From: an uncultured Acidimicrobiales bacterium
GTDB lineage: Bacteria > Actinomycetota > Acidimicrobiia > Acidimicrobiales > DATKAS01
Direction: 5' to 3'
DNA length: 64,000 nt
NCBI GenBank assembly: GCA_963733765.1
Contig: CAVTEI010000003.1
Span: forward strand, 1,867,336 to 1,931,335
Part shown: positions 13,052-51,670 of the stretch, piece after piece
Layout of the letters: every line of letters begins with the position of its first letter
Position numbering within the stretch: the stretch's first letter is position 1
The notes under the pieces: model-generated
What the model saw: the letters and a program-made list of their open reading frames with translations, nothing else
What the model was told of the DNA's origin: nothing
The model's database searches: none
Made by a program: the position numbers and the translations under genes

Positions 13052-13157
13052 GAGATCGGAACCGTAGAACCTCCCCCCGCGGGCTCATAGTTGCTACGGT
13101 CCGTCTCGGCACGTGCACACACCAGGCATTACGCCGGCTTGTTCGGGGGGACGAGAC

Positions 13158-13918
13158 GTGGCCTTGCTGGAGGTGGAAGAGGTCTCCGTCCGCTTCGGGG
13201 GGATCGTCGCCCTCGACGATCTCTCGTTCGCGATCGAGCCCGGGCAGATCTGTGGCCTGATCGGGCCGAACGGAGCGGGAAAGACGACGCTCTTCAACGT
13301 CATCAGCCGGATCTATGACCCCACATGGGGCATGGTGCGCTTCGAGGGCGAGAACCTGCTCGACGTCTCGGCGTCGGGCATCGCGGGGCGGGGGGTGGCA
13401 CGGACGTTCCAGAACCTCGCGCTCTACCCGACGATGACCATCATCGAGAACGTCATGGTCGGCGCAACGTCTCGGTCGAAGACGAACTGGATCACCGCCG
13501 CGTTCCGGGTCGGCGCCGAGCGTGAGGATCGCCAGCTGCGGCACGACGCGATGGAGATCCTGGCCGAGCTCGACCTCACCCGGTACGCGCTGCATCCCGC
13601 GACGGGGCTGCCGTACGGCACGCTCAAGCGAATCGAGCTCGCCGCGCGATGGCGTCGCGCCCGCGCCTGCTGCTGCTCGACGAGCCCGCGAGCGGACTCA
13701 CCCATAGCGAGGTCGACGAGCTCGCGGAGACGATCCGCGTCCTCCGCGATCGCCATCAGCTGACGATCCTGCTCGTCGAGCATCACATGCAGATGGTGAT
13801 GGGGATCTCCGACCAGGTGGTCGTCTTGAACTTTGGTCGGAAGATCGCCGAGGGCACACCGGCCGAGGTGTCGAACGACCCCGTCGTCATCGAGGCTTAC
13901 CTCGGGGCTCCCGCATGA
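13158..13918 (+). pseudogene. livG: Branched-chain amino acid ABC transporter ATP-binding protein LivG, frameshifted as sequenced
   Basis: GTG 13158, then VALLEVEEVSVRFGG...GLIGPNGAGKTT...LPYGTLKRIELA. The frame breaks near 13645. It continues RAMASRPRLLLLDEPASGL...VVIEAYLG in ORF 13649..13918, implying 1 nt missing. Confidence 0.9.
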
Positions 13919-14631
13919 GCGAGCCCGTGCTCACGGTCAGCGACCTCGAGGCGTCATACGGGCCGGTCGCGGTGTTGCACGGCCTTGACTTCGTGGTGAA
14001 TGACGGCGAGATCGTCGTGCTGCTCGGGGCGAACGGAGCCGGGAAGACGACGACGCTGCGCGCCCTGTGCGGCATGGTCGACACGAAGGGCTCGGTGCAG
14101 TTCGAGGGGACCGAGCTCGTCGGCAAACCGCCCGACTGGATCGTGCGGCGGGGCATCGCGCACGTGCCGCAAGGGCGGGGCACATTCCCCGAGCTCACCG
14201 TCGAGGAGAACTTGCAAGCCGGTGCGTACATCCGCAAGGACCACGACGAGGTCTGGAACGACGTGCAGCGCTGGCTCGAGGTGTTCCCGCGACTCGGTGA
14301 CCGTCGCGGCGTCGCCGCCGGCAGCTTGAGCGGCGGCGAGCAGCAGATGCTTGCCGTAGCCCGGGCGCTCATGTCACGCCCAAAGATGTTGTTGCTCGAC
14401 GAGCCGTCGCTCGGGCTCGCGCCAATGGTGACGCAGGAGCTGTTCAAGCGGTTCTCGGACTTGAACCGCGACTTCGGCACCACGATGTTCCTCGTCGAGC
14501 AGAACGCGGGGCTCGCACTCGCCATCGCGCAGCGGGCCTATGTGCTCGAAGCAGGGCACATCGTGCTCGCCGGCCCGTCGGAGGAGCTGCGCGACCACGA
14601 CGACGTCCGCAAGGCCTACCTGGGGTTCTGA
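13915..14631 (+). CDS. livF: Branched-chain amino acid ABC transporter ATP-binding protein LivF
   Basis: 238 aa with LLGANGAGKTTT, LSGGEQQMLAVARAL, LLLDEPSLGLAP. ATGA overlap with livG. Confidence 0.92.
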   Translation: MSEPVLTVSDLEASYGPVAVLHGLDFVVNDGEIVVLLGANGAGKTTTLRALCGMVDTKGSVQFEGTELVGKPPDWIVRRGIAHVPQGRGTFPELTVEENLQAGAYIRKDHDEVWNDVQRWLEVFPRLGDRRGVAAGSLSGGEQQMLAVARALMSRPKMLLLDEPSLGLAPMVTQELFKRFSDLNRDFGTTMFLVEQNAGLALAIAQRAYVLEAGHIVLAGPSEELRDHDDVRKAYLGF

Positions 14632-14633
14632 CC

Positions 14634-15584
14634 ATGATCCTTGCCATTCCGTTCATCAACGAGAGCTTCTTCAACTGGACGCTCATCGGCCAGCTGTTCG
14701 TCAACGGCCTGAAGCAGGGCGCGATCTATGCGCTGATGGCCCTGACGGTCGTGATCATTTACAAGACGACGGGGCATCTGAACTTCGCCCAGGGCGAGAT
14801 GGGCACCATGGGCGCGTTCATCGTCTTCGTGATCGCCATCGAGAACGGTCACTCGTACTGGGTTGCGATCCCCATCGCGCTCATCTTCTCCTTCGTCCTG
14901 GGGGCGGCGCTCGAGCGCACCCTGATCCGACCGATCGAACGGCGCAGCGCTCTTGGCGTTGTCATCGTTACGCTCGGCATCTTCCTCATCATCAACGCGC
15001 TGAACGCCGCAATCTGGGGGACGCAGCAGCTCTCGCCGCTGGCGCCGTTCCCCAACTTCCCGGATGATCAGTTCGTGCTCGCGGAGGGCCCGCCCCGGTT
15101 CGCCGTTCGATATGGGGCGATCGGCACCTGGGTCACACTGTCGATCGTCGTCGCGGTCCTGTGGTTCTTCTTCCAGAAGACGAAGCTGGGCCTCGGCTAT
15201 CGCGCGGTCGCGTCGAATCGTGAGTCGAGCCAGCTCGTCGGAGTGCCGGTCGGACGCATGCTCATGCTCGGGTGGGCGATCTCGGCGGTGCTCGGCACGA
15301 TCGCCGCGATCATGGTCTCGCAGTCGACGAACACACTCGACTTCAACCTGATGACCGTGGTGCTCCTCTACGGCTTCGCGGCAGCGGCATTGGGAGGTTT
15401 CGACAGCATTCCTGGCGCCGTGGTTGGCGGTCTGATCGTCGGCATGGCGGAGGCGTTCATCCCCGCGTTCTTCAGCTTCGTCGGATCAGAGCTCAGCCTC
15501 GCCGTCGCATTGGGGGTCATCGTGACCGTGTTGCTCGTGCGTCCCGAAGGCCTGTTCGGCACCAAGCGAATCGAGCGGGTATGA
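14634..15584 (+). CDS. livH: Branched-chain amino acid ABC transporter permease LivH
   Basis: 316 aa. Contains GAIYALMALTVVIIYKTTGHLNFAQGEMGTMGAF, typical of the LivH N-terminus. Confidence 0.9.
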   Translation: MILAIPFINESFFNWTLIGQLFVNGLKQGAIYALMALTVVIIYKTTGHLNFAQGEMGTMGAFIVFVIAIENGHSYWVAIPIALIFSFVLGAALERTLIRPIERRSALGVVIVTLGIFLIINALNAAIWGTQQLSPLAPFPNFPDDQFVLAEGPPRFAVRYGAIGTWVTLSIVVAVLWFFFQKTKLGLGYRAVASNRESSQLVGVPVGRMLMLGWAISAVLGTIAAIMVSQSTNTLDFNLMTVVLLYGFAAAALGGFDSIPGAVVGGLIVGMAEAFIPAFFSFVGSELSLAVALGVIVTVLLVRPEGLFGTKRIERV

Positions 15585-16759
15585 CCTGGCCGATCGTCAT
15601 CGAAAAGGGCTCGTCGAAGCACCGCCTCTGGCAGGTGGTCGGCTACGCAGTGCTCGCCGGCGCGATCTTCTGGATCGCCTACCGGTTCCAGAACTACCAG
15701 CTCCTCAACTTCGCGCGAACCGCCGCCGATGCAGTCGCGATCCTGGGGCTGATGATCATCATCGGGTACTCCGGACAGGTCTCGATCGGTCAGAGCTTCT
15801 TCTTCGGGCTCGGTGCCTACGTCACGGCGTGGCTCGGCGTCGATCATGGATGGAACTTCCTTCTGACGCTTCCTGTGTCTGCCGCGATCGGCATGGCGAT
15901 CGGCTTCCTCGTCGGAATTCCCGCGCTGCGCATCCGCGGCCTCTACCTCGCGCTCGTGACGCTCGCTCTGGCCGCGGTGTTCCCGGTGCTCGCGAAGCTC
16001 GAGGTGATGCAGAGCATCACCGGAGGCGCGAACGGCAAGCCCGCGGACGACATCATCTGGACGACCCCCGGCTGGGTGCCGGGTTCGCCGTCAAATCAGG
16101 CGTGGCAGTTCCTGGTGCTCTGTGCGATCGCCGCGGTGCTGTTCATCCTCGCTTCGAACATGATGAAGAGCCGGCCAGGTCGGAACCTGATCGCCCTTCG
16201 CGACAGTGAGGTCGGCGCGGCTGTGAGCGGCGTGTGGCCCGCGGGCTGGAAGGTCGGTGCGTTTGCGATCAGCGCGGCGTACGGCGCGCTCGGCGGCTCG
16301 ATGCTCGTGTTCGTCACCCGTATCGCCGCTCCCGAGACCGGAGGATTCGCGACTGCGATCGCGCTGCTGACCGGCGCGGTGCTCGGCGGGCTCGGCACGA
16401 TCTCGGGTGCCGTCGTCGGCGCGCTCGCGGTGACGTTCGTGCCCTACTACACGAACGAGTTCATGGCCGGTGATGGGCTTCTCTTCATTCCGGCGTCGGA
16501 TGGACCGCGCGACTTCTTCATCTTCCAGGGAGGCGACGGTCCGATCCTTGCGGGAGCGCTTTACGGCGTGCTCCTCATCGCAGTTGTCTTCGTGATGCCG
16601 GGAGGCATCATCTACTTCGTGCGGCTGATGCGATCGAAGCTGATCCGCTTCGTGCCGAAGCTGCCCGACGTCTCTGCACCACGTAGGGACGAGCCATCTC
16701 CCGCCGAGCTCGAGCCGGCAGGAGCGATCAATCAGCCCAGGGGGGGAGAACCCGCATGA
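15581..16759 (+). CDS. livM: Branched-chain amino acid ABC transporter permease LivM
   Basis: Long ORF trimmed to ATG 15581 (MTWPIVIEKG...), an ATGA overlap with livH. Contains IIIGYSGQVSIGQSFFFGLGAYV. Confidence 0.88.
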   Translation: MTWPIVIEKGSSKHRLWQVVGYAVLAGAIFWIAYRFQNYQLLNFARTAADAVAILGLMIIIGYSGQVSIGQSFFFGLGAYVTAWLGVDHGWNFLLTLPVSAAIGMAIGFLVGIPALRIRGLYLALVTLALAAVFPVLAKLEVMQSITGGANGKPADDIIWTTPGWVPGSPSNQAWQFLVLCAIAAVLFILASNMMKSRPGRNLIALRDSEVGAAVSGVWPAGWKVGAFAISAAYGALGGSMLVFVTRIAAPETGGFATAIALLTGAVLGGLGTISGAVVGALAVTFVPYYTNEFMAGDGLLFIPASDGPRDFFIFQGGDGPILAGALYGVLLIAVVFVMPGGIIYFVRLMRSKLIRFVPKLPDVSAPRRDEPSPAELEPAGAINQPRGGEPA

Positions 16760-18141
16760 GAAGAAAGAACCTCGTCCGCTTCGCCGCGGTCGGACTTGCC
16801 TTCGTGCTCGTCGCCGCGGCATGCGGCGACGACAGCGACTCCGACAGCGCCGCGACCACCGCAGGAGCGGCCACGACCGGTGCCGCTGCGGCCACCACCG
16901 GCGCCGCCGCGGACACGACTGCCGCCGCTGGTGGGGAGACGCTCCAGGTCGACACCGCGGCCTGCCCGCCCGAGGCCACGACGCCGCTCGCGGACGGTGA
17001 GGACATCGTGATCGGCATCACCGTGCCGCTGACCGGTCCTCTCGCGGCGTTCGGCGCCATCCCGCAGGGTATGACCGTGTACTTCGACAAGGTCAACGCT
17101 GCCGGTGGGATCGACGGGCACAACGTCGTGCTGATCTCCAAGGACGACGCGTACGACCCGAACAAGACGCCGCCACTGGTGACCGAGCTGATCGAGCAGG
17201 ACAAGATGATGGCGTCGCTCCTGCAGGTCGGCACGCCGAACGTCGCGGCGACTCGCGCCCTCTACGAGGAGTCGTGCACGCCGCAGCTCTACGTGGGCAC
17301 CGGCTTCCCGGCATGGGGCGACCCGACGGCTCATCAGTGGACGATCGGCGGCATCCTCGCCTACAACACCGAGGCCGTCATGTGGGCTGACTTCATCGCC
17401 GAGCAAAAGCCCGGAGCCACTGTCGCCCAACTCGTGTTCAACAACGACTTCGGCAAGGCCTACCAAACCACCTTCGAGGCGATCGCGCCGGAGAAGGGAC
17501 TCGAGGTCGTCGAGACCCAGCTCCACGAGGGAACGGCGACCGCGATCGACAACGAGATCACGACGCTGCTCGCTGCGAACCCGGACGTCATCATCGGCGA
17601 GACGACGGGCGCGTTCTGCCCGAAGCTCTTCGCAGGGCTCGCGGCCGGTGGATACCAGGGCATCGTCATCATCTCGGCGACGTGCGCGTCCGTGGCCTCG
17701 TTCTTCAAGCCAGTCGACCCGGCCGGCAACGGCGTCTACATCCTCGGCCAGCAGAAGGATCCGAGCGACCCGCAGTGGGCCGAAGATCCCCCGATGGTCG
17801 AGTACAAGGCCGACATGGCCGAGTTCGGCGAGAGCCTTGACGCCAACAACGGTCAGCACCTCACCGGCTACAACCTCGCAGCGCTCATGGTGGACACGCT
17901 GGAGCGGGCGGCAGCCCTGGAGGGCGGCCTGACCCGGGCGAACGTCATGAACGCGGCGTGGGCGACGAACTTCAAGGTTCCGCTCATCCTCGGCGGCACC
18001 TTCCATGTCGACGGCATCACTGACGCGTACGGCGCGGAGTACGCGGCGATGCTGCAGTACGACGCGGCGACGGGCTCGCTGGCGGCGACGGACCTTGTGT
18101 TCGACGTCGAGGGCGCGACGGGAGTATTCGAAGCGAGCTGA
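16756..18141 (+). CDS. ABC transporter substrate-binding lipoprotein (Leu/Ile/Val-binding, type I PBP family)
   Basis: 461 aa with lipobox LAFVLVAAACGDD, an Ala/Thr-rich linker, and ATGA overlap with livM. Confidence 0.85.
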   Translation: MRRKNLVRFAAVGLAFVLVAAACGDDSDSDSAATTAGAATTGAAAATTGAAADTTAAAGGETLQVDTAACPPEATTPLADGEDIVIGITVPLTGPLAAFGAIPQGMTVYFDKVNAAGGIDGHNVVLISKDDAYDPNKTPPLVTELIEQDKMMASLLQVGTPNVAATRALYEESCTPQLYVGTGFPAWGDPTAHQWTIGGILAYNTEAVMWADFIAEQKPGATVAQLVFNNDFGKAYQTTFEAIAPEKGLEVVETQLHEGTATAIDNEITTLLAANPDVIIGETTGAFCPKLFAGLAAGGYQGIVIISATCASVASFFKPVDPAGNGVYILGQQKDPSDPQWAEDPPMVEYKADMAEFGESLDANNGQHLTGYNLAALMVDTLERAAALEGGLTRANVMNAAWATNFKVPLILGGTFHVDGITDAYGAEYAAMLQYDAATGSLAATDLVFDVEGATGVFEAS

Positions 18142-21076: not shown

Positions 21077-21947
21077 TCAGAGGGCACGGCTGACGAAGCG
21101 CCAGATCTCGGTGAAGTCGCTATCAGGGAGCGCAGCATCGGTGCGTTGCCACACGTCCGAGACGGTGCTTCCGACATCATCGGCGGTGCCGGCGGCGCGC
21201 ACGGTCTCGACGTACAGCCTCAGGTCCTTCGCCATCAGCCGCGTGTGGAACCCGGCGTCGTAGGTGCCGGTGATCACTCGATTCGGGAACTTGTCGACGG
21301 TGGCCGAGTTGCGTCCCGGTCGACACGTTCAACACGTCGACCATCACGGCCATGTCGAGACCATGGGCCTCACCGAACGCCAAGCGCCTCGGACGTCGGC
21401 GGCCAGCGCGGTCGCCGAGAGGAAGTTGTTGAGCAGCTTCATCGCCTGCCCTGGCCGGCGCTGCTGCCGACGTGGAACACGTTGCCGGCGAACGCCTCGA
21501 ACAGCGGGCGGTGATCGTCGAGCACCGATCGGCGGCCCGGCGAACATGAGCGAGATCGTGCCCGCGCGGGCGCCAGCGACTCCGCCCGACACCGGACCGT
21601 CGACGTAGGTCACGCCGAGTCGGCGCCAAGATCTGCCGCGGCATCGGCGGCGGCCCGCGGTCCGACGGTCGAGAGATCGACCACCGTGGTGACCCGGCGG
21701 CTCGGCGCGGCGACGACCGCGTCGACGATCGCGGCGGTGGCCGCGCCGTCGGGCACGCTCAGCAGGACGTGTCGGCCGCGCCGCGAGGTCCCCGACGTCG
21801 AGCGCGGCCGACGCACCCGCCGGGAGGCGCTCCGTGGTGCCCGCGGCGTCGAAGCAGACGACCTCGAATCCGGCCGCCGCGATGCGTCGACGCCATCGGG
21901 TGGCCCATGTTGCCGAGCCCGACGAAGCCGACAACCGACGGGGTCAC
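21077..21947 (-). pseudogene. 3-hydroxyisobutyrate dehydrogenase-like NAD-binding oxidoreductase, at least 8 frame breaks
   Basis: The pieces lie in three frames: VTPSVVGFVGLGNMGHPMA / RRIAAAGFEVVCFD / DVLLSVPDGAATAAIVD...VDLSTVGP / GVTYVDGPVSGGVAGARAGTISLMFAGP / VLDDHRPLFEAFAGNVFHVG / QAMKLLNNFLSATALAA / TSEAL / AFGEAHGLDMAVMVDVLNVSTG / RNSATVDKFPNRVITGTYDAGFHTRLMAKDL. Confidence 0.85.
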
Positions 21948-22339
21948 GAGGCGGGCTCCGGCGTGATGCCCTCGGCCTCGAGCACCTGGCGTCCGAGCCG
22001 GAACGCCTCGACACCGGCCGGAATGCCGGCGTAGACGTGATCTGGATCAGCGTGTCGCGTAGCTCGTCGAGCGTGGCGCCGTTGCGGAGCGCACCCCGAA
22101 AGTGCGTCTTGAACTCCTCGGGCCGGTTCAGCGCGGCGAGAAGGCAGAGGTTGTTGAGGCTGCGCTGGCGATCGGTGAGCGGCGGTGCGACCCCAGACCT
22201 CGCCCCAGCAGTACTCGGTGACCAGCTTCTGGAACTCGAGGTTGAAGCTGTCGGCATTCGCGAAGGCCCGCTCGACGTACTCGTCGCCGAGCACCCGCTT
22301 ACGTGCCTCCAGCCCGACCTCGAAGAGCTCTTCGTCCAT
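21944..22339 (-). pseudogene. Carboxymuconolactone decarboxylase (AhpD-like) family protein, two frame breaks
   Basis: MDEELFEVGLEARKRVLGDEYVERAF...EYCWGEVWG / PPLTDRQRSLNNLCLLAALNRPEEFKTHFRGALRNGATLDELRDTLIQIT / VYAGIPAGVEAFRLG... The breaks are near 22187 and 22036. GTGA overlap with the downstream dehydrogenase. Confidence 0.8.
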
Positions 22340-42330: not shown

Positions 42331-43833
42331 ATGAAGCAGCTGAGTGGGCTCGATGCGTCCTTCCTCTACATGGAGACCGGCTCGCAGTTCGGCCACGTGT
42401 CGAGCGTGTCGGTGTACGAACGACCCGACGACCCTGACTATGACCCCTACGCCGCATGGCGTGCCCAGATCGAGCGCCGCCTTCATCTTCTCGAGCCCCT
42501 GCGGCGCCGCCTGCGGACGGTGCCGTTCTCGCTCGACCACCCGTTCTGGATCGAGGACCCCGACTTCGACCTCGACTTCCACGTGCGTCACAACGCACTG
42601 CCGCCGCCGGGCTCGGACGAACAGCTCGCCGAGCTGACCGCGCGGATCATCGGCCGCCCGCTCGACCGGAGCCGACCGTTGTGGGAGAGCTACGTCATCG
42701 AGGGACTTCCCGACGATCGCTTCGCGATCCTGACGAAGCTCCACCACGCCACGATCGACGGAGCGTCGGGTGCCGAGCTGCTGACGATGATGCTCGACAG
42801 CGACCCGGAAGGTGACTACATCGAGCCGCCGCGCACCGAGTGGCGCGGTGAACGCGTGCCGAGCGACGGCGAGATGATCGGGCGAGCGTCGATGTCGCTC
42901 GCCCGCAAGCCGGGCCGCGCGCTCCTCCTCACCGCGCGCACGACCCGAGAGCTCGGCAAGGCGACGCGCAACCCCGCGCTCGTGGATGCCGCCAACCAGG
43001 CCCGCGCCAGCCTGCGCGGTCCGGTCGGCGCGCTCCTCAACGTCGGCCGGCCCCGCGCGCCGGAAGGCGAGCAGCTCGGCTCGGCGCCGTCACTGACCGC
43101 GCCCAAGACACCGTTCAACGCCACGATCACCCCTCACCGCCGGTTCGCGTTCCGCTCCGTCCCGCTCGATGCGATCAAGGCGATCAAGACCTCGCTCGGT
43201 GCGACGGTCAACGACGTCGTGATGGCGGTGTGCGCCGGTGGACTGCGTGCCTGGCTCGAACGCGAAGACGCGCTGCCCGATGGTCCCCTCGTCGCAATGG
43301 TGCCGGTTTCGATCCGCACCGGCGAGGAGACAGAGAAGTGGACGAACCGGGTGTCCGCGATCTTCGCGTCGTTGCCCACGGACGAGGCTGACCCGGTCGA
43401 GCGCGTCTCGCGAGTGCACGACGCGATGGCCGACGCGAAGCGGCTTTTCGATGCGGTTCCTGCGGATGTGCTCACGGACTTCGCCCAGTTCCCGCCGCCG
43501 GCGGTCTTCGCGCAGGCGATGCGCACCGCGACGCGGCTGAGCGGGCGCTTCGGCACTCCCGTCAACCTCGTGATCTCGAACGTGCCAGGACCGAGGGAGC
43601 CGCTCTACACCGCCGGGGCCAAGCTGCTGCACTACTACCCGGTGTCGACGATCGTCGACGGCCAAGGGCTCAACATCACGGTGCAGAGCTACCTGAACAC
43701 GCTCGACTTCGGGCTCGTGAGCTGTCGCGAGCTCGTTCCCGATCTCTGGGAGCTGCTCGACGACATCATCGACGACGTCGTGACGTTGGGGAAGGCCGCG
43801 GGCGTCGACGTCGACCTCTCGGCGACCGGCTAG
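42331..43833 (+). CDS. Wax ester synthase / diacylglycerol O-acyltransferase (WS/DGAT)
   Basis: ATG 42331 with GGGAGGG upstream. MKQLSGLDASFLYMET...KLHHATIDGASG (the HHxxxDG active-site motif). Confidence 0.9.
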   Translation: MKQLSGLDASFLYMETGSQFGHVSSVSVYERPDDPDYDPYAAWRAQIERRLHLLEPLRRRLRTVPFSLDHPFWIEDPDFDLDFHVRHNALPPPGSDEQLAELTARIIGRPLDRSRPLWESYVIEGLPDDRFAILTKLHHATIDGASGAELLTMMLDSDPEGDYIEPPRTEWRGERVPSDGEMIGRASMSLARKPGRALLLTARTTRELGKATRNPALVDAANQARASLRGPVGALLNVGRPRAPEGEQLGSAPSLTAPKTPFNATITPHRRFAFRSVPLDAIKAIKTSLGATVNDVVMAVCAGGLRAWLEREDALPDGPLVAMVPVSIRTGEETEKWTNRVSAIFASLPTDEADPVERVSRVHDAMADAKRLFDAVPADVLTDFAQFPPPAVFAQAMRTATRLSGRFGTPVNLVISNVPGPREPLYTAGAKLLHYYPVSTIVDGQGLNITVQSYLNTLDFGLVSCRELVPDLWELLDDIIDDVVTLGKAAGVDVDLSATG

Positions 43834-44672: not shown

Positions 44673-44800
44673 GCCGACTGCCTGGTAGCAACGCGACCGG
44701 GGCACGCCCTCTATATTTCTCCGACACATACGATCAGGGGGGATCGAGTGGGGGACACGGGGGTGGGTCACCCGGCGAACGCCGGTGTGACGCGGCGGGG

Positions 44801-46951
44801 ATGAGCGTGACTGACGCGACCGTCGTCACGAGACGCGTCCCGCGCGTCACGTTCGACCTCGACCGCGCCATGCCCTACCTCCTCGCGCTGGGCATCCTCG
44901 TCGTCCAGCAGATCTTCTTCGGCGTGCCGATCGGCATCTTCGTCCGCGGCATCGTCGTCGGCCTTCTCACCGCGCTGATCGCGCTCGGCATGGCCTTGAC
45001 CTACCGGTCGAACCGCTTCATCAACTTCGCGCAGGGCGACCTCGGCACGCTCCCGGTCGTGCTGGTCGTGATGCTGATGACGGCGTGGTCGTGGCCGTAT
45101 CTGCTCGCGGTGCCCGTCGGCATCGTCGCGGCGCTCGCGCTCGGCGCCGTCGTCGAGCTCTTCATCATCCGGCGGTTCTTCAACGCCCCTCGGCTGATGA
45201 TCACGGTCGCGTCGCTCGGGCTCGCCCAGCTGCTCGGTGGCCTTGCCATCCTCCTGCCCCGGGCGTGGGGCCAGGACTTCCCGCTCCTCGGACAGCGCCT
45301 CGCGCCGCCGTTCGACATGGAGCTCACGATCGGCACGGTCGTCTTCGACGCGAACGACGTGATCGCCATGATCGTCGCGCCGTTGACGCTTCTCGGGCTC
45401 GCGATGTTCTTGCGCATGAGCAGCGTCGGCATGGCGATCCGAGCGAGCGCCGACAGCGCGGACCGCGCCGCGCTCCTCGGCGTGCCGGTCAAGCGGCTGC
45501 AGACCCTCGTGTGGTCGGTTGCCGCATTGATGGCGTTCATCGCCATCTTCTTGCGGGCCGGCATCATCGGCCTGCCGGTGTTCGGTGCGCTCTCGATCGG
45601 CGTCCTCCTGCGAGCGCTCGCCGCGCTCGTCCTCGGCCGGATGACGAACCTGCTGGCCATCGGCGTGAACGCGGTGGCGCTCGGCATCCTCGAGATCGCG
45701 ATCGGCTTCAGCGCCTCGAGCCCGTTCCTGATCGACCCGATCCTCGCCGTCATCATCATCGTGGCGTTGATGCTCAGCCGCTCGTCGTCGACGCGCGTGG
45801 ACGAAGCGGACGCGTCGACGTGGCGAGCGGCCGACGACGTGCGGCCGATCCCCGAGAACGTCGGTCGTATCCCGGTCGTCCGGCGGCCAAGTGGGGAGGC
45901 GTCGCGCTCGTCACGGCGTTCCTGCTGATCCTTCCGCAGGTGCTCTCCGTCGATCGCACCTACAAGGCGTCGGTGATCGGTGTGTACGCGGTGCTCGGGC
46001 TCTCGGTGGTGGTGCTCACCGGATGGGCCGGTCAGGTGTCGCTCGGGCAGATCGCGTTCTTCGCGATCGGTGCCGCCGTCGGGGCGAAGGCGACGCTGGA
46101 CTGGGGACTCGATCTCAGCCTCGCCCTCGTCGTCAGCTTCGTGATCGGCGCGATCGTGGCGGCCGCGGTCGGGCTGCCCGCGCTGCGAAGACGCGGGTTC
46201 TACCTCGCCGTCGCGACGTTGGCGTTCTCCCTCGCGACGACGTCGTACCTTCTCAACCCGAGGTACTTCGTCGTGGGTGCCCGAGGGTCGCATCCCGAGA
46301 CCGCCGCTGTTCGGCAAGATCGACATCGAGTCGACCTCCGGCATGTACTACGTGATCCTCGGCGTGCTCGTCATCTGCTTCTTCTTGGTGAAGGGCATCC
46401 ACGAGAGCCGAACCGGCCGGGCGTTCATGGCGCTCCGCGACAACGAGCGAGCGGCCGAGGCGTACGGCCTTCACGCGATTCGCGTACACGTCGTCGCGTT
46501 CGCGCTCTCGGGCGGTCTCGCCGGCGTCGCCGGGTGTCTTCTCGCGCACCAGCAGCAGGGCCTCGATCCGGAGTCGTTCGGCGCGTTCGCGAACCTGTAC
46601 ATCCTCACGATGGTGATCATCGGGGGCGTCACGACACCGATCGGTGCGCTCATCGGCGCGATGTACCTCGTCGGCACCGAGTCGTTCCTGCCGGTGCGGT
46701 GGCAGTTCCTCGCGAGCGCGATCGGCGTGCTGCTGATCCTGCTGATCCTGCCGAGCGGCCTCGGCGGGCTGCTCTACCGCCTGCGCGATCGATGGCTCGC
46801 CCGGGTCGCGAAGCAACACGGCGTCGATGCGCCCGGCCTGGCGACCTCGGACCCGCGCGCGGCCGAGTCGGTGCTCGCGGCCGCGCCACTGGCGCAGAGT
46901 GCCGGGCCGGAACCCGAGCCCGAACCGGTGCCTGCAGGGGAGCGCTCATGA
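44801..46951 (+). pseudogene. Fused LivH-like + LivM-like ABC permease, two frame breaks as sequenced
   Basis: The LivH-like half is ...ALGMALTYRSNRFINFAQGDLGT... A linker STRVDEADASTWRAADDVRPIPENVGRIPVVRR follows. After a break near 45885 comes the LivM-like half ...VVVLTGWAGQVSLGQIAFFAIGAAV..., and after a break near 46272 come WVPEGRIPRPPLFGKIDIES...ALRDNERAAEAYG. Confidence 0.8.
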
Positions 46952-49876
46952 TCAAGCGCTGGATGTATGGCATCACCGGTGGCGCCGCGATCTACCCGCT
47001 GCTGATCCTGTTCGGCCTGAACGCGGTCGACGAGCTCGACCGCACCGCGTTCGCGGTGCTGCTGCCCAACATCCGCGACGAGTTCGGCCTCGACCTCACC
47101 GGTCTGCTCGCGCTGATCGCGGCTGTCAGCTTCGTCGCCCTCGTCCTCCAGATCCCGATCGCGTCGTACTCCGACCGTCACAACCGGGTGCGCATCACCT
47201 GGATCGGCGCGCTCGCGTGGGCGTTCTTCTCGCTGCTCACCGGGTTGGCGTGGTCGATCATCGTGCTCGGCATCGCCCGGGCCGGCTCCGGCATCGGCAA
47301 GGCCGTCGTCGACCCGACGCACAACTCGCTGATCGCCGACTGGTACGACATCCCGAGCCGGCCGCGGGTGTACTCGTTCCACCGGGCCGCGAACGCGGTC
47401 GGCGCGATCATCGGCCCGCTCGTCGCCGGACTGCTCGCGGCCGCGTACGGATGGCGCTGGCCGTTCATCGTCTTCACGATCCCCACGCTCGTGTTCGTCG
47501 TCCTGGCCTGGCGGCTGCATGAGCCCAAGCGCGGGGTCTTCGAGCGGCGAGCGGCGGGTGCATCCGAGGAGGCCGCGCAGACCGAGGAAGCGCGGCCGAG
47601 CTTCGCCGAATCGTGGCGGATCGTGTGGAAGGTCGAGACCTTGCGCCGCATCTGGTACGCGCTGCCGTTCCTCGCGGTGTCGCTGATCGGCTTCTCGGTG
47701 CTCGCGTCGCTGCTGTACGAGGAGGTCTACGGCCTCGACGAGCGGGCCCGCGGCATCATCGCCGCGTGCGTCGAACCGGCGCAGCTCCTCGGGCTCATCC
47801 TCGGCGCCCGAATCGCCACCCGCCTGATGGTTCGAGGGCGCGGCGGAGGTGATCAAGTTCCTCACCTACGTCATCTATGCGGTCGCGGTGGGCTTGGCGG
47901 TCATCGCCGTGGTCCCCAGCCTCGGTGTCACCATTGCCGTGAACTTCGTGATCACCGGACTCGGCGCCATCCTCGCTCCGGGCATCTTCGCCGCGCTGAG
48001 CCTCGCCATCCCTCCTCGTGCCCGTTCGTTGGGGTTCTCGGTGGCGTCGCTCTGGATCATCCCGGGCCTGCTGGTTCTGCCGATCATCGGCGCGATCGGC
48101 GACAGGTGGGGGCTGCGTACCGGCATGTTGCTCATGACGCCGTTGTTCCTCGTCGGCGGGCTCGTACTGGCGACCACCAGGCGGACGATCAACGGCGACA
48201 TCGCCGACGTCTGGCGGGCGACGGCGGCGCGGTCTGAGGTCGCCTACGAGCGCGCGCAGGGCCGCGCCAAGCTCCTGCTGGTCCGTGGTCTGGAGGTGCG
48301 CTACGGCAGCGTGCAGGTGCTGTTCGACGTGAACATGGAAATCGAGGAGGGCAGCTGCGTCGCGCTGCTCGGCACGAACGGTGCCGGCAAGTCCACGCTC
48401 CTCAAGGCGATCTCCGGCATCGTCGAGGCGGACCGCGGCGCGGTGATCTTCGACGGTCGGGAGATGACCCACGCGCCGCCGAACGAGATCGCCGCGTTCG
48501 GCATCCGGCAGGTGCCGGGCGGCCAAGGCGTGTTCCTGAACCTCACCGTCGAGGAGAACCTGCAGACGGCCTCGTGGCTCCACCGCCGCGACAAGGCGGC
48601 GACGGATGAAGGCATCGCAGCGCGTCATGGAGCTGTTCCCGGTCCTCGCCGAACGGCGTTCGGATCCGGCCGGCAACCTGTCGGGCGGACAGCAGCAGAT
48701 GCTGGCGCTCGGCATGGCGTTCCTCTCCAAGCCGAGACTGCTCATGATCGACGAGCTGTCACTCGGGCTCGCACCGGTCGTCGTCGCGCAGCTGCTTCCG
48801 CTGATCGATCACCTGCGTGAAGAGGGCACGACGATCATCCTCGTCGAGCAGTCCGTGAACCTCGCACTCGCCGTGGCCGACACCGCCTACTTCATGGAGC
48901 GGGGGCAGATCCGGTTCCACGGCCCCACCCGCGAGCTGCTCGACCGGCCCGACCTCATGCGTTCGGTGTTCATCGAGGGCGCGTCGGAGCGGCTGCACGA
49001 GAACGGGGACGAGCCCGCCGCCGGCCGAGGCCGGAGAAGTTCGCGGTCACCAAGTACGCCCCCGACGGTCCCGCCTTGCTCGAATCGTGCGGTGTCTCGG
49101 TGGCGTTCGGTGGCAACCGCGCCGTCGACGACGTGAGCTTCGATGTTCACACGGGCGAGGTGCTCGGCATCATCGGCCCGAACGGTGCCGGCAAGACGAC
49201 GCTCTTCGACCTGCTGTCCGGCTACCTGAAGCTGGACTCCGGCGCGATCCATCTGAACGGTCGCGACATCACCTCGATGGGGCCCGCGTCGCGCGCCGAG
49301 CACGGCCTCGGCCGCTCGTTCCAGGATGCCGCCCTGTTCTCGTCGCTCACGGTGGAGCAAACGATCGCGGTGGCATGCGAGCGCTGGATCAAGGTGCGCG
49401 ACCCTGTGTCCGCCGCCCTCCACCTCCCCAACGCCTACGACTCCGAGCGCCAGACCATGGCGCGCGTCCACGAGCTGGTCGATCTGCTCGGCCTCGGGCG
49501 TGCACCGCACGAAGTTCACCCGCGAGCTGTCGACGGGCACGAAGCGCGTCGTCGGTCTCGCCTGCCTGCTCGCGCACCGTCCGTCGGTGATCCTGCTCGA
49601 CGAGCCGTCGAGCGGCATCGCGCAGAAGGAAGTCGAGGCGCTCGTCCCCGTCCTGTTGCGCATCCGCGACGAGACCGGCGCCAGCCTCGTCGTCATCGAG
49701 CACGACATGCCGCTGCTGCGCTCGGTCGCCGACCGGATGATCGCCATGGACCAGGGCGCGGTGATCGCCGAGTGGCCACCCGCCGAAGTGTTGGCGCGCC
49801 GGAGGTCGTCGAGTCGTACCTCGGCACGACCGCCGACGCCATCGAACGTTCGGGAGCCTTCGGCCCTCGCAACTGA
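46948..49876 (+). pseudogene. MFS-like 12-TM domain fused to LivF-like and LivG-like ABC ATPase domains, at least 5 frame breaks as sequenced
   Basis: MFS N-half with motif-A-like SYSDRHNRVRI. The MFS C-half and NBD1 (LLGTNGAGKSTL) share one uninterrupted ORF (47849..48820). NBD1 continues LSGGQQQMLALG/LLMIDELSLGLAP. NBD2 has IIGPNGAGKTT, LSTGTKRVV, ILLDEPSSGIA, EVVESYLG. The breaks are near 47828, 48619, 49028, 49500 and 49795. Confidence 0.75.
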
Positions 49877-49912: not shown

Positions 49913-51670
49913 ATGCAACCGAGCAGCGCCGATACCCCGAGCAAGTCCGGCAGCCCGATGCGCCGCTACGGACCGCTCATCGCGATCGTCGCGGTGATCG
50001 CCGTGGTCGCAGGCATCTTGATCTTCGCCAGCGGTGGGGACGACGACGACGACAGCGCCGCTGCGACAACCGCGGCGGTCGGCGCGGGCACGACCGCGGC
50101 TGCAGGCGCAGGGACGAGCGCCGCCGCCGGCACGCGACCGGAGGGCGCCATCACGTTCGCTCAAGCGCAGGAGCAGGGCCTCGATCTCACGTTCGGAGAC
50201 TCATGCGATCCCGAGACGGGACGGCTCATGATCCCGGACTACTTCGCGCCCGAGTGCTACGCGGACGCCGACGACAACGGCGGCGCGACCGCGCCGGGCG
50301 TCACGGCCGACACCATCACCGTCGTCGCCTATGTCGCTCCCGACAGCGACCCGGTGCTCGACTTCATCACCGCGGCGATCAGCAACGACGACACCGCCGC
50401 CCAGGTCGCCGAGACCTACCAGAACTACACCACCATGATGAACGACCTCTACCAGACCTATGGGCGCCAGGTGGAGCTCAAGATCCTCAACGGCTCGGGC
50501 ACGTCGGAGAACGGTGTCGCCGCGCGCGCCGACGCCGTGAAGGCCGTGGAGGAGATGGGTGCGTTCGCGGTCTGGGGCGGCCCGGCGCTCGCGCCGTCGT
50601 GGACAGAGGAGATCAAGGCCCGCGGCGTCATCTGCCTCGGCTGCCCGGCCATCGCCGACCCCGAGCCCTACGTCTTCCCGATCACCGCGAGCGGCGACCA
50701 GACGCGGCTCCAGCTCGCCGAGTGGATCACGAAGAAGCTGAAGGACGGCAACGCGGAGCACGCCGGCGATCCGGCGCTCACCTCGCAGCCGCGGGTGTTC
50801 GGTCACATCTACCTCGAGACTGTGGGCGGTCCCCAGCCGCAAGAGGCGGCGGACTTCAAGGCGACGCTCTCCGAAGGCGGCGTCGAGCTGGCCGAGCAGA
50901 TCTCGTACGCGCTCGACCCGGCGACGCTGCAGGAGCAGGGCGCGGGCATCATCCAGCGCCTGAAGGCGGCCGGCGTCACGACGATCATCTTCAACGGTGA
51001 CCCCATCGCCCCGAAGATCTTCACCGAGGAGGCGACCAAGCAGAACTACTTCCCCGAATGGCTCTACGGCGGCTCCGTGCTCGTCGACACGAACGCGTTC
51101 GGCCGCACCTTCGACCAGCAGCAGTGGGCCCACGCGTTCGGCATCACCTCGCTGTCGACTCGGGTCTCGCCCGAAATCGTCGCCGAGCACGACCTGCACA
51201 CCTGGTACTTCGGCGGCCTGGCGCCGGCCGACGACAGCTACGGCGTCATCTACCCGCAGCCAGCGTTGTTCTTCGCCGGGTTGCAGGCAGCCGGGCCGAA
51301 CCTCACCGCGGAGACCTTCCGCGACGGGCTGTTCGGATTCACCGCGGAGCTGCCGGAACCCGCGCTCACCCAGCCGCTCATCACCTACGGCGACCACGGG
51401 CTCTGGCCCGAGGCGCCCGACTACTTCGGCATCGACGACTTCACCGAGATCTGGTGGGATCCCACCGCGACCGGGGAGGACGAGATCCGTCGCGAGGGCA
51501 ACGGCATGATGCGCTTCGTCGACCAGGGCAAGCGCTACCGGCTCGGCGAGTGGACGAGCGAGCTCAAGGCGTTCGATCCGGAGAACGCGCCGGCGACGTT
51601 CGACGAGCTCCCCGCATCCGAGGCGCCTCCGTTGTATCCGCCGCCTCCGGGGTCGCCGGCCGCAGGCTGA
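49913..51670 (+). CDS. Large ABC transporter substrate-binding protein (type I PBP-like) with N-terminal membrane anchor and Ala/Thr linker
   Basis: 585 aa, intact, with LIAIVAVIAVVAGILIFASGGDDDDDSAAATTAA... It lies directly downstream of the atypical ABC genes. The family assignment rests on context and general composition. Confidence 0.6.
   Translation: MQPSSADTPSKSGSPMRRYGPLIAIVAVIAVVAGILIFASGGDDDDDSAAATTAAVGAGTTAAAGAGTSAAAGTRPEGAITFAQAQEQGLDLTFGDSCDPETGRLMIPDYFAPECYADADDNGGATAPGVTADTITVVAYVAPDSDPVLDFITAAISNDDTAAQVAETYQNYTTMMNDLYQTYGRQVELKILNGSGTSENGVAARADAVKAVEEMGAFAVWGGPALAPSWTEEIKARGVICLGCPAIADPEPYVFPITASGDQTRLQLAEWITKKLKDGNAEHAGDPALTSQPRVFGHIYLETVGGPQPQEAADFKATLSEGGVELAEQISYALDPATLQEQGAGIIQRLKAAGVTTIIFNGDPIAPKIFTEEATKQNYFPEWLYGGSVLVDTNAFGRTFDQQQWAHAFGITSLSTRVSPEIVAEHDLHTWYFGGLAPADDSYGVIYPQPALFFAGLQAAGPNLTAETFRDGLFGFTAELPEPALTQPLITYGDHGLWPEAPDYFGIDDFTEIWWDPTATGEDEIRREGNGMMRFVDQGKRYRLGEWTSELKAFDPENAPATFDELPASEAPPLYPPPPGSPAAG

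What the first reader, a model, noticed from the sequence alone, without database searches (positions are those of the whole stretch)
46948..49876. Chimeric transporter gene: MFS-like 12-TM domain fused to two Liv-type ABC ATPase domains
- **The MFS-NBD junction is real in the sequence.** ORF 47849..48820 is one uninterrupted frame. It holds the C-terminal half of an MFS-type membrane domain (AILAPGIFAALSLAIPPRARSLGFSVASLWIIPGLLVLPIIGAIGDRWGLRTGMLLMTPLFLVGG). About 35 residues later it holds a LivF-like nucleotide-binding domain (LLLVRGLEVRYGSVQVLFDVNMEIEEGSCVALLGTNGAGKSTLL). None of the frame breaks creates this junction.
- **Upstream.** The MFS N-half starts at ATG 46948, has a motif-A-like SYSDRHNRVRI, and joins across one extra nucleotide near 47828.
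- **Downstream.** NBD1 (LSGGQQQMLALG, LLMIDELSLGLAP) continues, with no stop in the frame that takes over, into a LivG-like NBD2 (IIGPNGAGKTT, LSTGTKRVV, ILLDEPSSGIA, EVVESYLG).
- **Product.** The reconstructed protein is roughly 975 aa: MFS-NBD-NBD.

A secondary-transporter fold covalently joined to a complete ABC ATPase pair is not the canonical HAAT/Liv layout. The canonical layout is itself present in this window at 13158-18141. The chimera sits between a fused LivH-LivM permease and a 585-aa binding protein. The MFS-like domain could act as a regulatory or anchoring module, or as a second translocation path.
Basis: partly seen in the sequence, partly recalled or inferred. Interest (0 to 1): 0.72.

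Follow-up and report, generated by a model that had tools for sequence, protein, structure and literature searches.

The report
MFS domain fused to Liv ATPases
The window really does encode one roughly 975-residue protein that joins a 12-helix secondary-transporter (MFS) domain to both ATPase subunits of a Liv-type ABC importer; the design is conserved across Acidimicrobiia but I found no study of it, and the five frame breaks here are most likely Nanopore assembly errors.

Summary
Window 46948-49876 (+) encodes, after correcting five single-base indels, a 975-aa protein: MFS_1 domain (12 helices), a conserved linker helix, a LivF/UrtE-like NBD, a variable linker and a LivG/UrtD-like NBD. ORF 47849-48820 carries the MFS-to-NBD1 junction uninterrupted.

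Of 80 related loci from GTDB species genomes, 61 hold the whole protein as one ORF of about 955-1045 aa. One is the finished genome of the isolate Actinospongicola halichondriae. A fused LivH-LivM permease always lies directly upstream, and a membrane-anchored LivJ-fold binding protein always lies directly downstream.

Frame breaks occur only in Nanopore-only MAGs (9 of 28 loci, against 0 of 52 others). They sit at different positions in different genomes. dN/dS against the closest relative is 0.067, like the intact neighbouring genes. The breaks are therefore most likely assembly artefacts, not decay.

The MFS domain is about as conserved as the NBDs, and its family-wide invariant residues sit on the cytoplasmic face. 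It is probably an active accessory module of a complete HAAT importer, but its role is unknown. A sister lineage has LivH-LivM-LivF-LivG in one chain with no MFS.

I found no paper describing the fusion. Verdict: real, common, uncharacterised; a new variant of a known kind.

The parts
44798..46951 (+). Fused LivH-LivM permease gene, two BPD_transp_2 domains. Broken in the window by a missing base at about 45885 and an extra base at about 46273. The start codon is uncertain (ATG 44798 is likely; the mechanical ORF starts at TTG 44669). Its stop overlaps the next gene's ATG (ATGA at 46948-46951).
   Evidence: Pfam BPD_transp_2 on all three in-frame pieces. Intact fused orthologues of 667 aa (L001) and 721 aa (L054). 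Indels relative to L005. Directly upstream in 72 of 72 loci.
46948..48187 (+). MFS domain of the fusion protein (residues 1-413): 12 transmembrane helices in a 6+6 arrangement, motif A (SYSDRHNRVRI) and a highly conserved central cytoplasmic loop. Contains frame break 1, an extra base at 47839.
   Evidence: Pfam MFS_1 at 147.4 bits. AF2 helices with pLDDT about 93-97. Conservation 0.69-0.79. Family-wide near-invariant D76, R77, R80, D131, R195, G196, R224, R233, P355, R357, R359.
48188..48268 (+). Conserved linker helix (residues 414-440, DIADVWRATAARSEVAYERAQGRAK) that joins TM12 to NBD1. It lies within the uninterrupted ORF 47849-48820.
   Evidence: Single helix 414-436 in the AF2 model. Conservation 0.73, D417 invariant. 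The same linker aligns in LivHMFG single-chain relatives. The junction is in one frame in 28 homologues.
48269..48971 (+). NBD1 (residues 441-674), LivF/UrtE-like: Walker A GTNGAGKST, signature LSGGQQQ, Walker B LLMIDE, and LVEQS in place of the H-loop. Contains frame break 2, an extra base at 48620.
   Evidence: Pfam ABC_tran. NCBIfam UrtE and LivF stretches at 444-674. PDB 1ji0 at 42% identity, TMt 0.90.
48972..49072 (+). Variable, disordered NBD1-NBD2 linker (residues 675-708). Contains frame break 3, a missing base at 49031. In-frame in orthologues.
   Evidence: pLDDT below 50. Conservation 0.23. One frame without a stop in L001 and in 61 intact loci.
49073..49876 (+). NBD2 (residues 709-975), LivG/UrtD-like: Walker A GPNGAGKTT, degenerate signature LSTGTKR, Walker B ILLDEP, H-loop IEHD, C-terminal EVVESYLG motif. 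Contains frame breaks 4 (extra base at 49499) and 5 (missing base at 49799). Stop at 49874-49876.
   Evidence: Pfam ABC_tran. BCA_ABC_TP_C scores 19.8 bits in the window and 26.9 bits in L054, against a cut-off of 25.5. NCBIfam UrtD and LivG stretches at 710-960.
49913..51670 (+). Intact 585-aa substrate-binding protein candidate. It has an N-terminal membrane anchor, an acidic disordered linker and a LivJ-type (type I periplasmic-binding) fold with extra beta elements.
   Evidence: No Pfam or NCBIfam hit. Some homologues carry PF13458. AF2 pLDDT 87. Foldseek TMt 0.65-0.70 to Leu-, aromatic-acid- and urea-binding proteins. Directly downstream in 71 of 71 loci.

Best explanation
**What it is (shown)**
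- Window 44.8-51.7 kb is a three-gene operon for a complete HAAT-type (Liv/Urt-like) ABC importer built from unusually fused parts.
  1. LivH-LivM in one chain: both membrane domains.
  2. A 975-aa chain carrying an N-terminal 12-helix MFS domain, a conserved linker helix, a LivF-like NBD and a LivG-like NBD: both ATPases plus the extra MFS.
  3. A membrane-anchored LivJ-fold binding protein.
- The five frame breaks in gene 2 and the two in gene 1 are single-base indel errors of a long-read assembly. They are not gene boundaries and not decay.

**How it most likely works (inferred)**
- The binding protein delivers a still-unknown small solute to LivHM.
- The tethered LivF-LivG pair closes as a head-to-tail dimer and drives import, as in canonical Liv/Urt systems.
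- The MFS domain is an accessory module beside LivHM. It is not needed for the ABC core, because a sister lineage has LivH-LivM-LivF-LivG in one chain with the same kind of binding protein and no MFS.
- The MFS domain keeps its alternating-access switch (motif A, its C-domain counterpart, a DHA-like TM1 and TM5). Its family-wide invariant residues are all on the cytoplasmic face, next to the NBDs.
- My leading reading (about 0.35) is that it is still a working proton-coupled carrier for a related solute: a by-product exporter or a low-affinity second route. In this reading, its conformational state and the ATPase cycle influence each other through the conserved central loop and linker helix.
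- A non-transporting regulatory or anchoring role is nearly as likely (about 0.3).
For: **Architecture**
- Pfam and NCBIfam domains of the reconstruction.
- The junction lies within the uninterrupted ORF 47849-48820 and in 28 homologues.
- 61 of 80 GTDB-genome loci have one ORF of 955-1045 aa covering residues 2-972.
- The isolate Actinospongicola halichondriae has LivHM (721 aa), the fusion (993 aa) and a 575-aa downstream protein.
- Synteny holds in 72 of 72 loci upstream and 71 of 71 downstream.
- Many cluster representatives of about 1000 aa align end to end at 35-58% identity.

**Frame breaks are artefacts**
- Breaks occur only in Nanopore-only MFD MAG loci: 9 of 28 against 0 of 52 others. 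The sequencing technology and the single Medaka polishing round come from PMC12313526.
- The closest relative L005 breaks at other positions. It also carries 14 single-base insertions in a gene that is intact in the window.
- Other candidate breaks are scattered over the window.
- dN/dS is 0.067, compared with 0.042-0.104 for neighbouring genes.

**The MFS domain is under selection**
- Conservation is 0.69-0.79, against 0.75-0.78 for the NBDs and 0.23 for the inter-NBD linker.
- Near-invariant positions across the wider family: D76, R77, R80, D131, R195, G196, R224, R233, P355, R357, R359.
- AF2 model: pLDDT 90.1, pTM 0.76, 12 helices plus a linker helix.
- The NBD pair superposes on single-chain tandem NBDs of M. 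tuberculosis DppD/OppD (TMt 0.74 to the ATP-bound form).

**The MFS domain is accessory**
- A LivHMFG single chain (1287 aa) is followed by a 562-aa Peripla_BP_6 protein with no MFS gene nearby.

**Binding protein**
- LivJ-type fold.
Against: - No reads are available, so the indels cannot be proven to be errors. The window has more breaks in this operon (7 in 5.2 kb) than elsewhere (roughly 9 candidates in 59 kb). The locus could be a very recently inactivated copy.
- Nothing here shows that the MFS domain binds or moves any solute. Across the wider family the cavity-facing residues are not invariant, which fits a non-transporting role as well as substrate diversification.
- No MFS subfamily model reaches its cut-off.
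- The substrate is unknown. The binding protein is only 11-17% identical to solved relatives.
- The relative placement of MFS and LivHM is not modelled. I had only a single-chain prediction and no coordinates.
Confidence: 0.85

Rival explanations
1. The MFS domain no longer transports anything. It is a membrane tether, assembly scaffold or transceptor-like regulator. It holds the fused ATPase pair next to LivHM and gates ATP hydrolysis, for example by trans-inhibition or by sensing membrane or solute state. In that respect it resembles the accessory TMD0 domains of some eukaryotic ABC proteins.
For: - All family-wide invariant MFS residues lie on the cytoplasmic face and in the central loop, not in the cavity (with the helix map).
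- The central loop is the most conserved MFS segment at 0.79, as expected for a docking surface.
- The ABC core can work without any MFS in the sister LivHMFG lineage.
- No MFS subfamily assignment was possible.
Against: - A simple tether would not need an intact motif A, its C-domain counterpart or a DHA-like TM5 GP motif conserved at NBD-like levels.
- ABC importer NBDs normally need no anchor.
Confidence: 0.3
2. This is a hybrid primary/secondary pump. The NBD dimer's ATP cycle mechanically drives the MFS domain through the TM12-linker helix, making the MFS a second, ATP-powered translocation path alongside or instead of LivHM.
For: - The covalent TM12-helix-NBD1 connection is conserved, with D417 invariant and linker conservation of 0.73.
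- The MFS domain is always N-terminal to the LivF-type NBD, including in relatives where LivG is a separate gene.
Against: - Both NBD coupling grooves are expected to be occupied by LivH and LivM, which are strictly co-encoded (72 of 72 loci).
- The same linker also precedes LivF in LivHMFG chains that have no MFS. It is therefore a property of this LivF subfamily, not an MFS-coupling device.
- I know of no precedent for an ATP-driven MFS.
Confidence: 0.12
3. The locus in this particular genome is a decaying pseudogene, and the frame breaks are real mutations. On this reading the window documents loss of the system rather than a working gene.
For: - Seven breaks are concentrated in 5.2 kb, against roughly 9 candidates in the other 59 kb.
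- The flanking SDR, WS/DGAT and binding-protein genes are intact.
Against: - dN/dS is 0.067 in every in-frame block, the same as the intact neighbours.
- There are no in-frame stops or large deletions.
- Identical kinds of indel clusters occur in other genes of the sister Nanopore MAG.
- Breaks in this gene are confined to Nanopore-only assemblies.
Confidence: 0.08

Closest known systems
Canonical HAAT-family ABC importers (TC 3.A.1.4): E. coli LivJ/K-LivHMGF and the urea system UrtABCDE
   Same: - Two BPD_transp_2 membrane domains.
- A LivF/UrtE-type plus a LivG/UrtD-type NBD heterodimer, including the LivG C-terminal motif and the LivF VEQ in place of the H-loop histidine.
- A type I (LivJ-fold) binding protein.
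- A canonical unfused copy lies in the same window at 13113-18141.
   Different: - H and M are fused into one chain.
- F and G are fused in F-G order and carry an N-terminal 12-helix MFS domain.
- The binding protein is about 200 residues longer, is anchored by a transmembrane helix and escapes Pfam.
- No equivalog cut-off for LivF, LivG or UrtD is reached. The UrtE score exceeds its cut-off only as a sum over two NBDs.
Single-chain LivH-LivM-LivF-LivG proteins (about 1250-1290 aa, e.g. P0145, P0167, P0195), uncharacterised metagenomic relatives
   Same: - The closest NBD relatives, at 49-59% identity over the NBDs.
- The same linker precedes LivF.
- The same large binding protein lies downstream.
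   Different: LivM, not an MFS, is joined to the linker, and there is no MFS gene in the neighbourhood.
Mycobacterium tuberculosis OppD / DppD (PDB 8j5q, 8wdb): tandem NBDs of an ABC importer in one polypeptide
   Same: Two NBDs in one chain form the head-to-tail dimer. These are the best structural matches of the AF2 model (TMt 0.59-0.74).
   Different: They belong to the peptide (PepT) family, at 22-26% identity, and have no membrane domain attached.
MFS fusion families catalogued in TCDB, e.g. Sensor Kinase-MFS fusion (TC 2.A.1.34, listed in PMC3924187), and accessory N-terminal membrane domains of ABC proteins (TMD0 of ABCC/SUR; from my own knowledge)
   Same: An MFS fold is covalently joined to a cytoplasmic catalytic or signalling module, or an ABC system carries an extra N-terminal membrane domain outside the translocation core.
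   Different: The partner here is a complete ABC ATPase pair. TMD0 is a 5-helix bundle, not an MFS. None of these is homologous to the present fusion beyond the generic fold.

Membership tests
HAAT-family ABC importer (TC 3.A.1.4, Liv/Urt type) | Two BPD_transp_2 (LivH/LivM-type) membrane domains | tested here: met
   Pfam BPD_transp_2 on the window pieces 44798-45883, 45886-46272 and 46283-46948. Two stretches in the intact orthologue L054.
HAAT-family ABC importer (TC 3.A.1.4, Liv/Urt type) | A LivF/UrtE-type and a LivG/UrtD-type ATP-binding domain with intact Walker A, Walker B and signature motifs | tested here: met
   Two ABC_tran stretches. UrtE/LivF models match 444-674 and UrtD/LivG models match 710-960. 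The motifs were read directly from the sequence.
HAAT-family ABC importer (TC 3.A.1.4, Liv/Urt type) | Equivalog-level identity to LivF, LivG, UrtD or UrtE (NCBIfam curated cut-offs) | tested here: inconclusive
   LivG 278 against 362, LivF 276 against 441 and UrtD 295.5 against 304.1 are all below cut-off. UrtE at 315.3 against 285.8 is above it, but that score sums two NBD stretches of a fused protein.
HAAT-family ABC importer (TC 3.A.1.4, Liv/Urt type) | Cognate type I (Peripla_BP_6 / LivJ-like) substrate-binding protein | tested here: met
   There is no sequence-profile hit for the window protein. Some homologues carry PF13458. The AF2 model (pLDDT 87) matches LivJ-type binding proteins at TMt 0.65-0.70. 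The feature is met by fold, not by profile.
HAAT-family ABC importer (TC 3.A.1.4, Liv/Urt type) | ATP-dependent uptake of branched-chain or hydrophobic amino acids, urea or related small solutes | not testable with these tools
   Needs transport assays. The nearest solved binding proteins (11-17% identity) bind Leu, aromatic acids, urea, amides or pyroglutamate, so no substrate can be inferred.
Major facilitator superfamily (TC 2.A.1; Pfam MFS_1) | Profile match above the curated threshold | tested here: met
   MFS_1 at 147.4 bits against 33.4, residues 22-367. 132.5 bits in the L054 orthologue.
Major facilitator superfamily (TC 2.A.1; Pfam MFS_1) | Twelve transmembrane helices as 6+6 with a central cytoplasmic loop and both termini cytoplasmic | tested here: met
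   The AF2 helix list covers residues 16-412 with a loop at 188-229, at pLDDT 92-97. The cytoplasmic C-terminus is implied by the fusion to the NBDs.
Major facilitator superfamily (TC 2.A.1; Pfam MFS_1) | Motif A (G-x3-D-R-x-G-R-R/K) in the TM2-TM3 loop | tested here: met
   The window has ASYSDRHNRVRI. D76 and R77 are at least 90% conserved and R80 is invariant in 49 sequences of 33-57% identity. The counterpart PPRxR lies in the TM8-TM9 loop.
Major facilitator superfamily (TC 2.A.1; Pfam MFS_1) | Assignment to a named MFS subfamily with known substrate | tested here: not met
   The best NCBIfam model, TIGR00893, scores 99.6 bits against a cut-off of 395, and all others are far below theirs. 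The best PDB matches by sequence are EfpA, DgoT and NorA at E 1e-15 to 1e-5.
Pseudogene / decaying locus | Relaxed selection and breaks shared with, or nested within, close relatives | tested here: not met
   dN/dS is 0.067 against 0.042-0.104 in neighbouring genes. The breaks are not shared with L005. Breaks are restricted to Nanopore-only assemblies, 9 of 28 against 0 of 52.

The most novel reading that the evidence does not exclude
The MFS domain is a second, functionally coupled translocation path. ATP binding and hydrolysis by the tethered LivF-LivG dimer drives or gates alternating access of an MFS carrier through the conserved TM12-linker helix and central loop. One complex would then combine primary and secondary transport, for example ATP-gated exchange or an import/export cycle. 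I know of no described transporter that works this way.
Probability: 0.12. Interest if true: 0.9.

Novelty: new variant of a known kind. Interest (0 to 1): 0.55.

Why it matters
- ABC (primary) and MFS (secondary) transporters are the two largest transporter superfamilies, and they are normally treated as mechanistically separate.
- Here an MFS fold is covalently and stably joined to a complete ABC ATPase pair inside an otherwise complete binding-protein-dependent importer. The arrangement is conserved under strong purifying selection across a whole bacterial class that is abundant in soil, sediment, activated sludge and marine sponges.
- This is a natural 'Rosetta stone' for a functional link between the two mechanisms: regulation, metabolite exchange, or possibly ATP control of an MFS.
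- A cultured host now exists (Actinospongicola halichondriae Hal317), so the question can be tested experimentally.
- There is also a practical lesson. In Nanopore-only MAGs this 2.9-kb gene is often shattered into fragments that gene callers and protein databases then record as separate 'MFS' and 'ABC ATPase' proteins. That hides the architecture and inflates apparent pseudogene counts.

Tried and rejected
- **Programmed frameshifting or split genes.** I considered this because the first protein search returned only fragments of 450 aa or less, several frameshifted near the same places. I rejected it for two reasons. The break positions differ between genomes. Short-read MAGs and the isolate have one clean ORF.
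- **Fragment-only hit list.** This was a property of that search, not biology. The exhaustive representative search finds many full-length proteins.
- **Exact look-up of the window ORF product.** It is not on record, so the source assembly could not be identified directly.
- **First alignment for the genome scan (A1).** A tighter alignment (A2) worked.
- **Apparent read-through of NBD2 into the binding protein in L057 and L064 (1547 and 1615 aa).** This was a bug in my ORF extension. Both have a stop after NBD2.
- **MFS-NBD1-only proteins (about 700 aa).** I suspected these were artefacts. In L083, however, the 4-nt overlap with a following ABC_tran gene suggests a genuine variant with LivG separate. 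That LivG is only 198 aa, so it remains unsettled.
- **Literature searches.** Five literature searches found no description of an MFS-LivF/LivG fusion. Reading three candidate papers also found none. The library lacks most subscription journals and TCDB itself, so this is absence of evidence only.
- **Substrate inference from NCBIfam (UrtE above cut-off).** Rejected as unreliable because the score sums two NBDs.
- **Domain packing and cavity.** No coordinates or PAE of the AF2 model were available, so domain packing and cavity lining could not be analysed.

Full report
**1. What is in the window**

The window is 68% G+C. Its closest relatives are Acidimicrobiia MAGs. Between 44.7 and 51.7 kb all coding signal is on the + strand.

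Three-frame translation, GC3 phase and a codon-usage Viterbi agree. The coding frame changes without a stop at about 45880 and 46280. It changes again at about 47830, 48615, 49030, 49495 and 49770-49800. At 46948 there is instead a true gene boundary, a stop overlapping ATG (ATGA).

ORF 47849-48820 is uninterrupted. It runs from the last five or six MFS helices, through a roughly 30-residue linker, into Walker A and the Q-loop of an NBD.

**2. Reconstruction**

I used homologues to place the breaks. The protein assembles from six in-frame blocks:
- 46948-47838
- 47840-48619
- 48621-49031
- 49031-49498
- 49500-49799
- 49799-49873

That corresponds to three extra bases and two missing bases, mostly in short G or C runs.

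The 975-aa product has these features:
- Pfam MFS_1 at residues 22-367: 147.4 bits against a cut-off of 33.4. ABC_tran is matched twice. There is a sub-threshold LivG C-terminal motif.
- NCBIfam places NBD1 with UrtE/LivF and NBD2 with UrtD/LivG.
- The MFS part alone reaches no subfamily cut-off. Its best solved relatives are EfpA, DgoT and NorA.

**3. Is the fusion real?**

A scan of one genome per GTDB species, using two MFS- and linker-specific peptide patterns, confirmed 341 relatives. The best 80 loci are all Acidimicrobiia.
- The reconstruction aligns end to end (residues about 2-972) in a single frame in 61 of them. The ORFs are 955-1045 aa (two apparent outliers were my script's error).
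- One of these is the finished chromosome of the cultured Actinospongicola halichondriae Hal317. It has fused LivHM (721 aa) and an ATGA overlap into a 993-aa MFS-NBD-NBD gene. A 575-aa downstream protein follows.
- In L001 the NBD1-linker-NBD2 stretch is also one frame.
- LivHM lies directly upstream in 72 of 72 loci and the large downstream protein follows in 71 of 71.
- An exhaustive search of 1.84 billion cluster representatives finds dozens of proteins of about 1000 aa that align over the full length at 35-58% identity. One is from Bowdeniella nasicola (Actinomycetaceae) and is annotated only as 'MFS transporter'. Others are named 'branched-chain amino acid transport system ATP-binding protein'. 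Its locus again has fused LivHM immediately upstream.

**4. The frame breaks**

Frame breaks in this gene occur in 9 of 28 loci from Microflora Danica MAGs, 13 breaks in total. They occur in 0 of 52 loci from short-read MAGs, other assemblies and the isolate. The Microflora Danica MAGs are Nanopore-only assemblies polished with one round of Medaka. Their authors report reduced coding density at low coverage (PMC12313526).

The closest relative, L005, is 91% identical in nucleotides and 94-99% in amino acids.
- It is broken at different positions.
- It carries 14 single-base insertions inside the WS/DGAT gene, which is intact in the window.
- Local clusters of indels are therefore a feature of such assemblies.

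The window has further candidate breaks at about 927, 13644, 18969, 19410, 21300-22035, 22929, 29463 and 39228.

Between the window and L005, dN/dS of the frame-corrected gene is 0.067, and 0.046-0.108 per block. The comparison values are 0.046 for the binding protein, 0.042 for LivH and 0.104 for the SDR gene. I conclude that the breaks are artefacts with probability about 0.9. A very recent inactivation cannot be excluded without reads.

**5. Anatomy and conservation**

AlphaFold2 with 49 family members gives pLDDT 90.1 and pTM 0.76. The model contains:
- twelve MFS helices (residues 16-412);
- one continuous helix at 414-436 leading from TM12 to NBD1;
- NBD1 (441-674);
- a disordered 675-700 linker;
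- NBD2 (709-958).

The NBD pair superposes best on the single-chain tandem NBDs of M. tuberculosis DppD and OppD, at TMt 0.74 to the ATP-bound state. No solved structure combines an MFS with NBDs.

Conservation across 60 Acidimicrobiia orthologues (mean frequency of the commonest residue):

| Segment | Conservation |
|---|---|
| MFS N-half | 0.72 |
| MFS central loop | 0.79 |
| MFS C-half | 0.69 |
| TM12-NBD1 linker | 0.73 |
| NBD1 | 0.78 |
| Inter-NBD linker | 0.23 |
| NBD2 | 0.75 |

In the wider family (33-57% identity) the near-invariant MFS positions fall into four groups:
- D76, R77 and R80, which form motif A;
- D131;
- R195, G196, R224 and R233, which lie in the central loop;
- P355, R357 and R359, which form the C-domain counterpart of motif A.

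All of these lie on the cytoplasmic face. TM1 (LNAVDELDRTAFAVLLP) and TM5 (GAIIGPLVAG) resemble the motifs of drug:H+ antiporter-type MFS proteins. That resemblance is my own reading of the sequence, not a test.

NBD2 has a degenerate signature (LSTGT). NBD1 has Q in place of the H-loop histidine, as in LivF. The two ATP sites are therefore probably unequal.

**6. The downstream protein**

It has no Pfam or NCBIfam hit, and most homologues are 'hypothetical'. A minority carry PF13458. AF2 (pLDDT 87) followed by Foldseek shows a LivJ-type two-lobe fold. TMt is 0.65-0.70 to binding proteins for leucine, aromatic acids, urea and amides, at 11-17% identity. It also has extra beta elements, an N-terminal membrane anchor and an acidic disordered tether. 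'Binding protein' is supported. The substrate is not inferable.

**7. Relatives with other layouts**

The nearest NBD relatives include single chains of 1250-1290 aa with BPD_transp_2 twice and ABC_tran twice, that is LivH-LivM-LivF-LivG. In a short-read contig such a gene is followed by a 562-aa Peripla_BP_6 protein, and no MFS gene is nearby.

The linker preceding LivF aligns between the two layouts. So the ABC core works without an MFS, and in our lineage the MFS occupies the position N-terminal to the LivF linker.

About a dozen representatives end right after NBD1 (MFS-LivF, about 700 aa). In one such locus a short separate ABC_tran gene follows with a 4-nt overlap.

**8. Mechanism**

- **Shown:** the operon encodes every part of a HAAT importer, plus an MFS domain under selection as strong as that on the ATPases.
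- **Inferred:** the binding protein, LivHM and LivF-LivG act as in Liv/Urt systems. The MFS is an accessory module.
- Its switch motifs and its cytoplasmic face are the best conserved parts, and it is tied to NBD1 by a conserved helix. I therefore think it still changes conformation and communicates with the ATPase.

My probabilities for its role:

| Role of the MFS domain | Probability |
|---|---|
| Still a working proton-coupled carrier for a related solute, cross-regulated with the importer | about 0.35 |
| Non-transporting regulator or anchor | about 0.30 |
| ATP-driven or ATP-gated second pathway | about 0.12 |
| Something else | remainder |

**9. Novelty**

The architecture is common and is already present in sequence databases under generic names. 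I found no paper that describes or tests it. The library lacks most subscription journals and TCDB itself.

It is best filed as a new, uncharacterised variant of the HAAT ABC importer. A cultured host is available for experiments.

Noticed in passing
window ~927, ~13644, ~18969, ~19410, 21300-22035, ~22929, ~29463, ~39228: These are further places where the coding frame changes on the same strand without a nearby stop, so they are candidate single-base indel errors elsewhere in the window. The one at about 13644 would split the LivG-like gene of the canonical liv operon: ORF 13113-13763 has an ABC_tran domain cut at profile position 121 of 137.
   Followed up: partly
L005:742-1770 (window 42601-43618): The sister Nanopore MAG (MFD02242.bin.2.229) has 14 single-base insertions within 1 kb of the WS/DGAT gene, which is intact in the window. 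Indel errors in these assemblies evidently come in local clusters.
   Followed up: partly
window 49913-51670: The 585-aa downstream protein escapes Pfam and NCBIfam. Its AF2 model has a LivJ-type fold plus extra beta elements (about residues 80-135 and 509-543), an N-terminal transmembrane anchor and an Asp-rich disordered tether. It looks like an undescribed large subfamily of type I binding proteins, mostly annotated as hypothetical.
   Followed up: partly
L084:7001-12558; P0145, P0167, P0195, P0252: Complete HAAT importers exist as one polypeptide, LivH-LivM-LivF-LivG (1250-1290 aa; one of 1571 aa), followed by a 562-aa Peripla_BP_6 protein. These are the closest NBD relatives of the MFS fusion and lack any MFS.
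   Followed up: partly
L082:3130-11296 (Bowdeniella nasicola JAUNVN010000004.1): In this distant Actinomycetaceae member the order is GntR regulator, LivHM (734 aa), MFS-NBD-NBD (1026 aa). MoxR-like AAA and DUF58 genes then follow, instead of the large binding protein.
   Followed up: no
window 49500-49560 (NBD2 signature) and 48800-48830 (NBD1 H-loop region): NBD2 carries LSTGT(K/R)R instead of LSGGQ, conserved family-wide. NBD1 has LVEQS in place of an H-loop histidine. The two composite ATP sites are probably functionally asymmetric.
   Followed up: no
(protein searches): The word-indexed protein search listed only fragments of 450 aa or less for this family, although many full-length relatives of about 1000 aa exist. 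Fragmented gene calls from long-read MAGs dominate the top of such hit lists and can suggest, wrongly, that a gene is always split.
   Followed up: yes
window 13113-18141: A canonical unfused liv-type operon (LivG-like, LivF-like, LivH, LivM, 461-aa Peripla_BP_6 protein) is present in the same window. The organism therefore has both layouts.
   Followed up: yes
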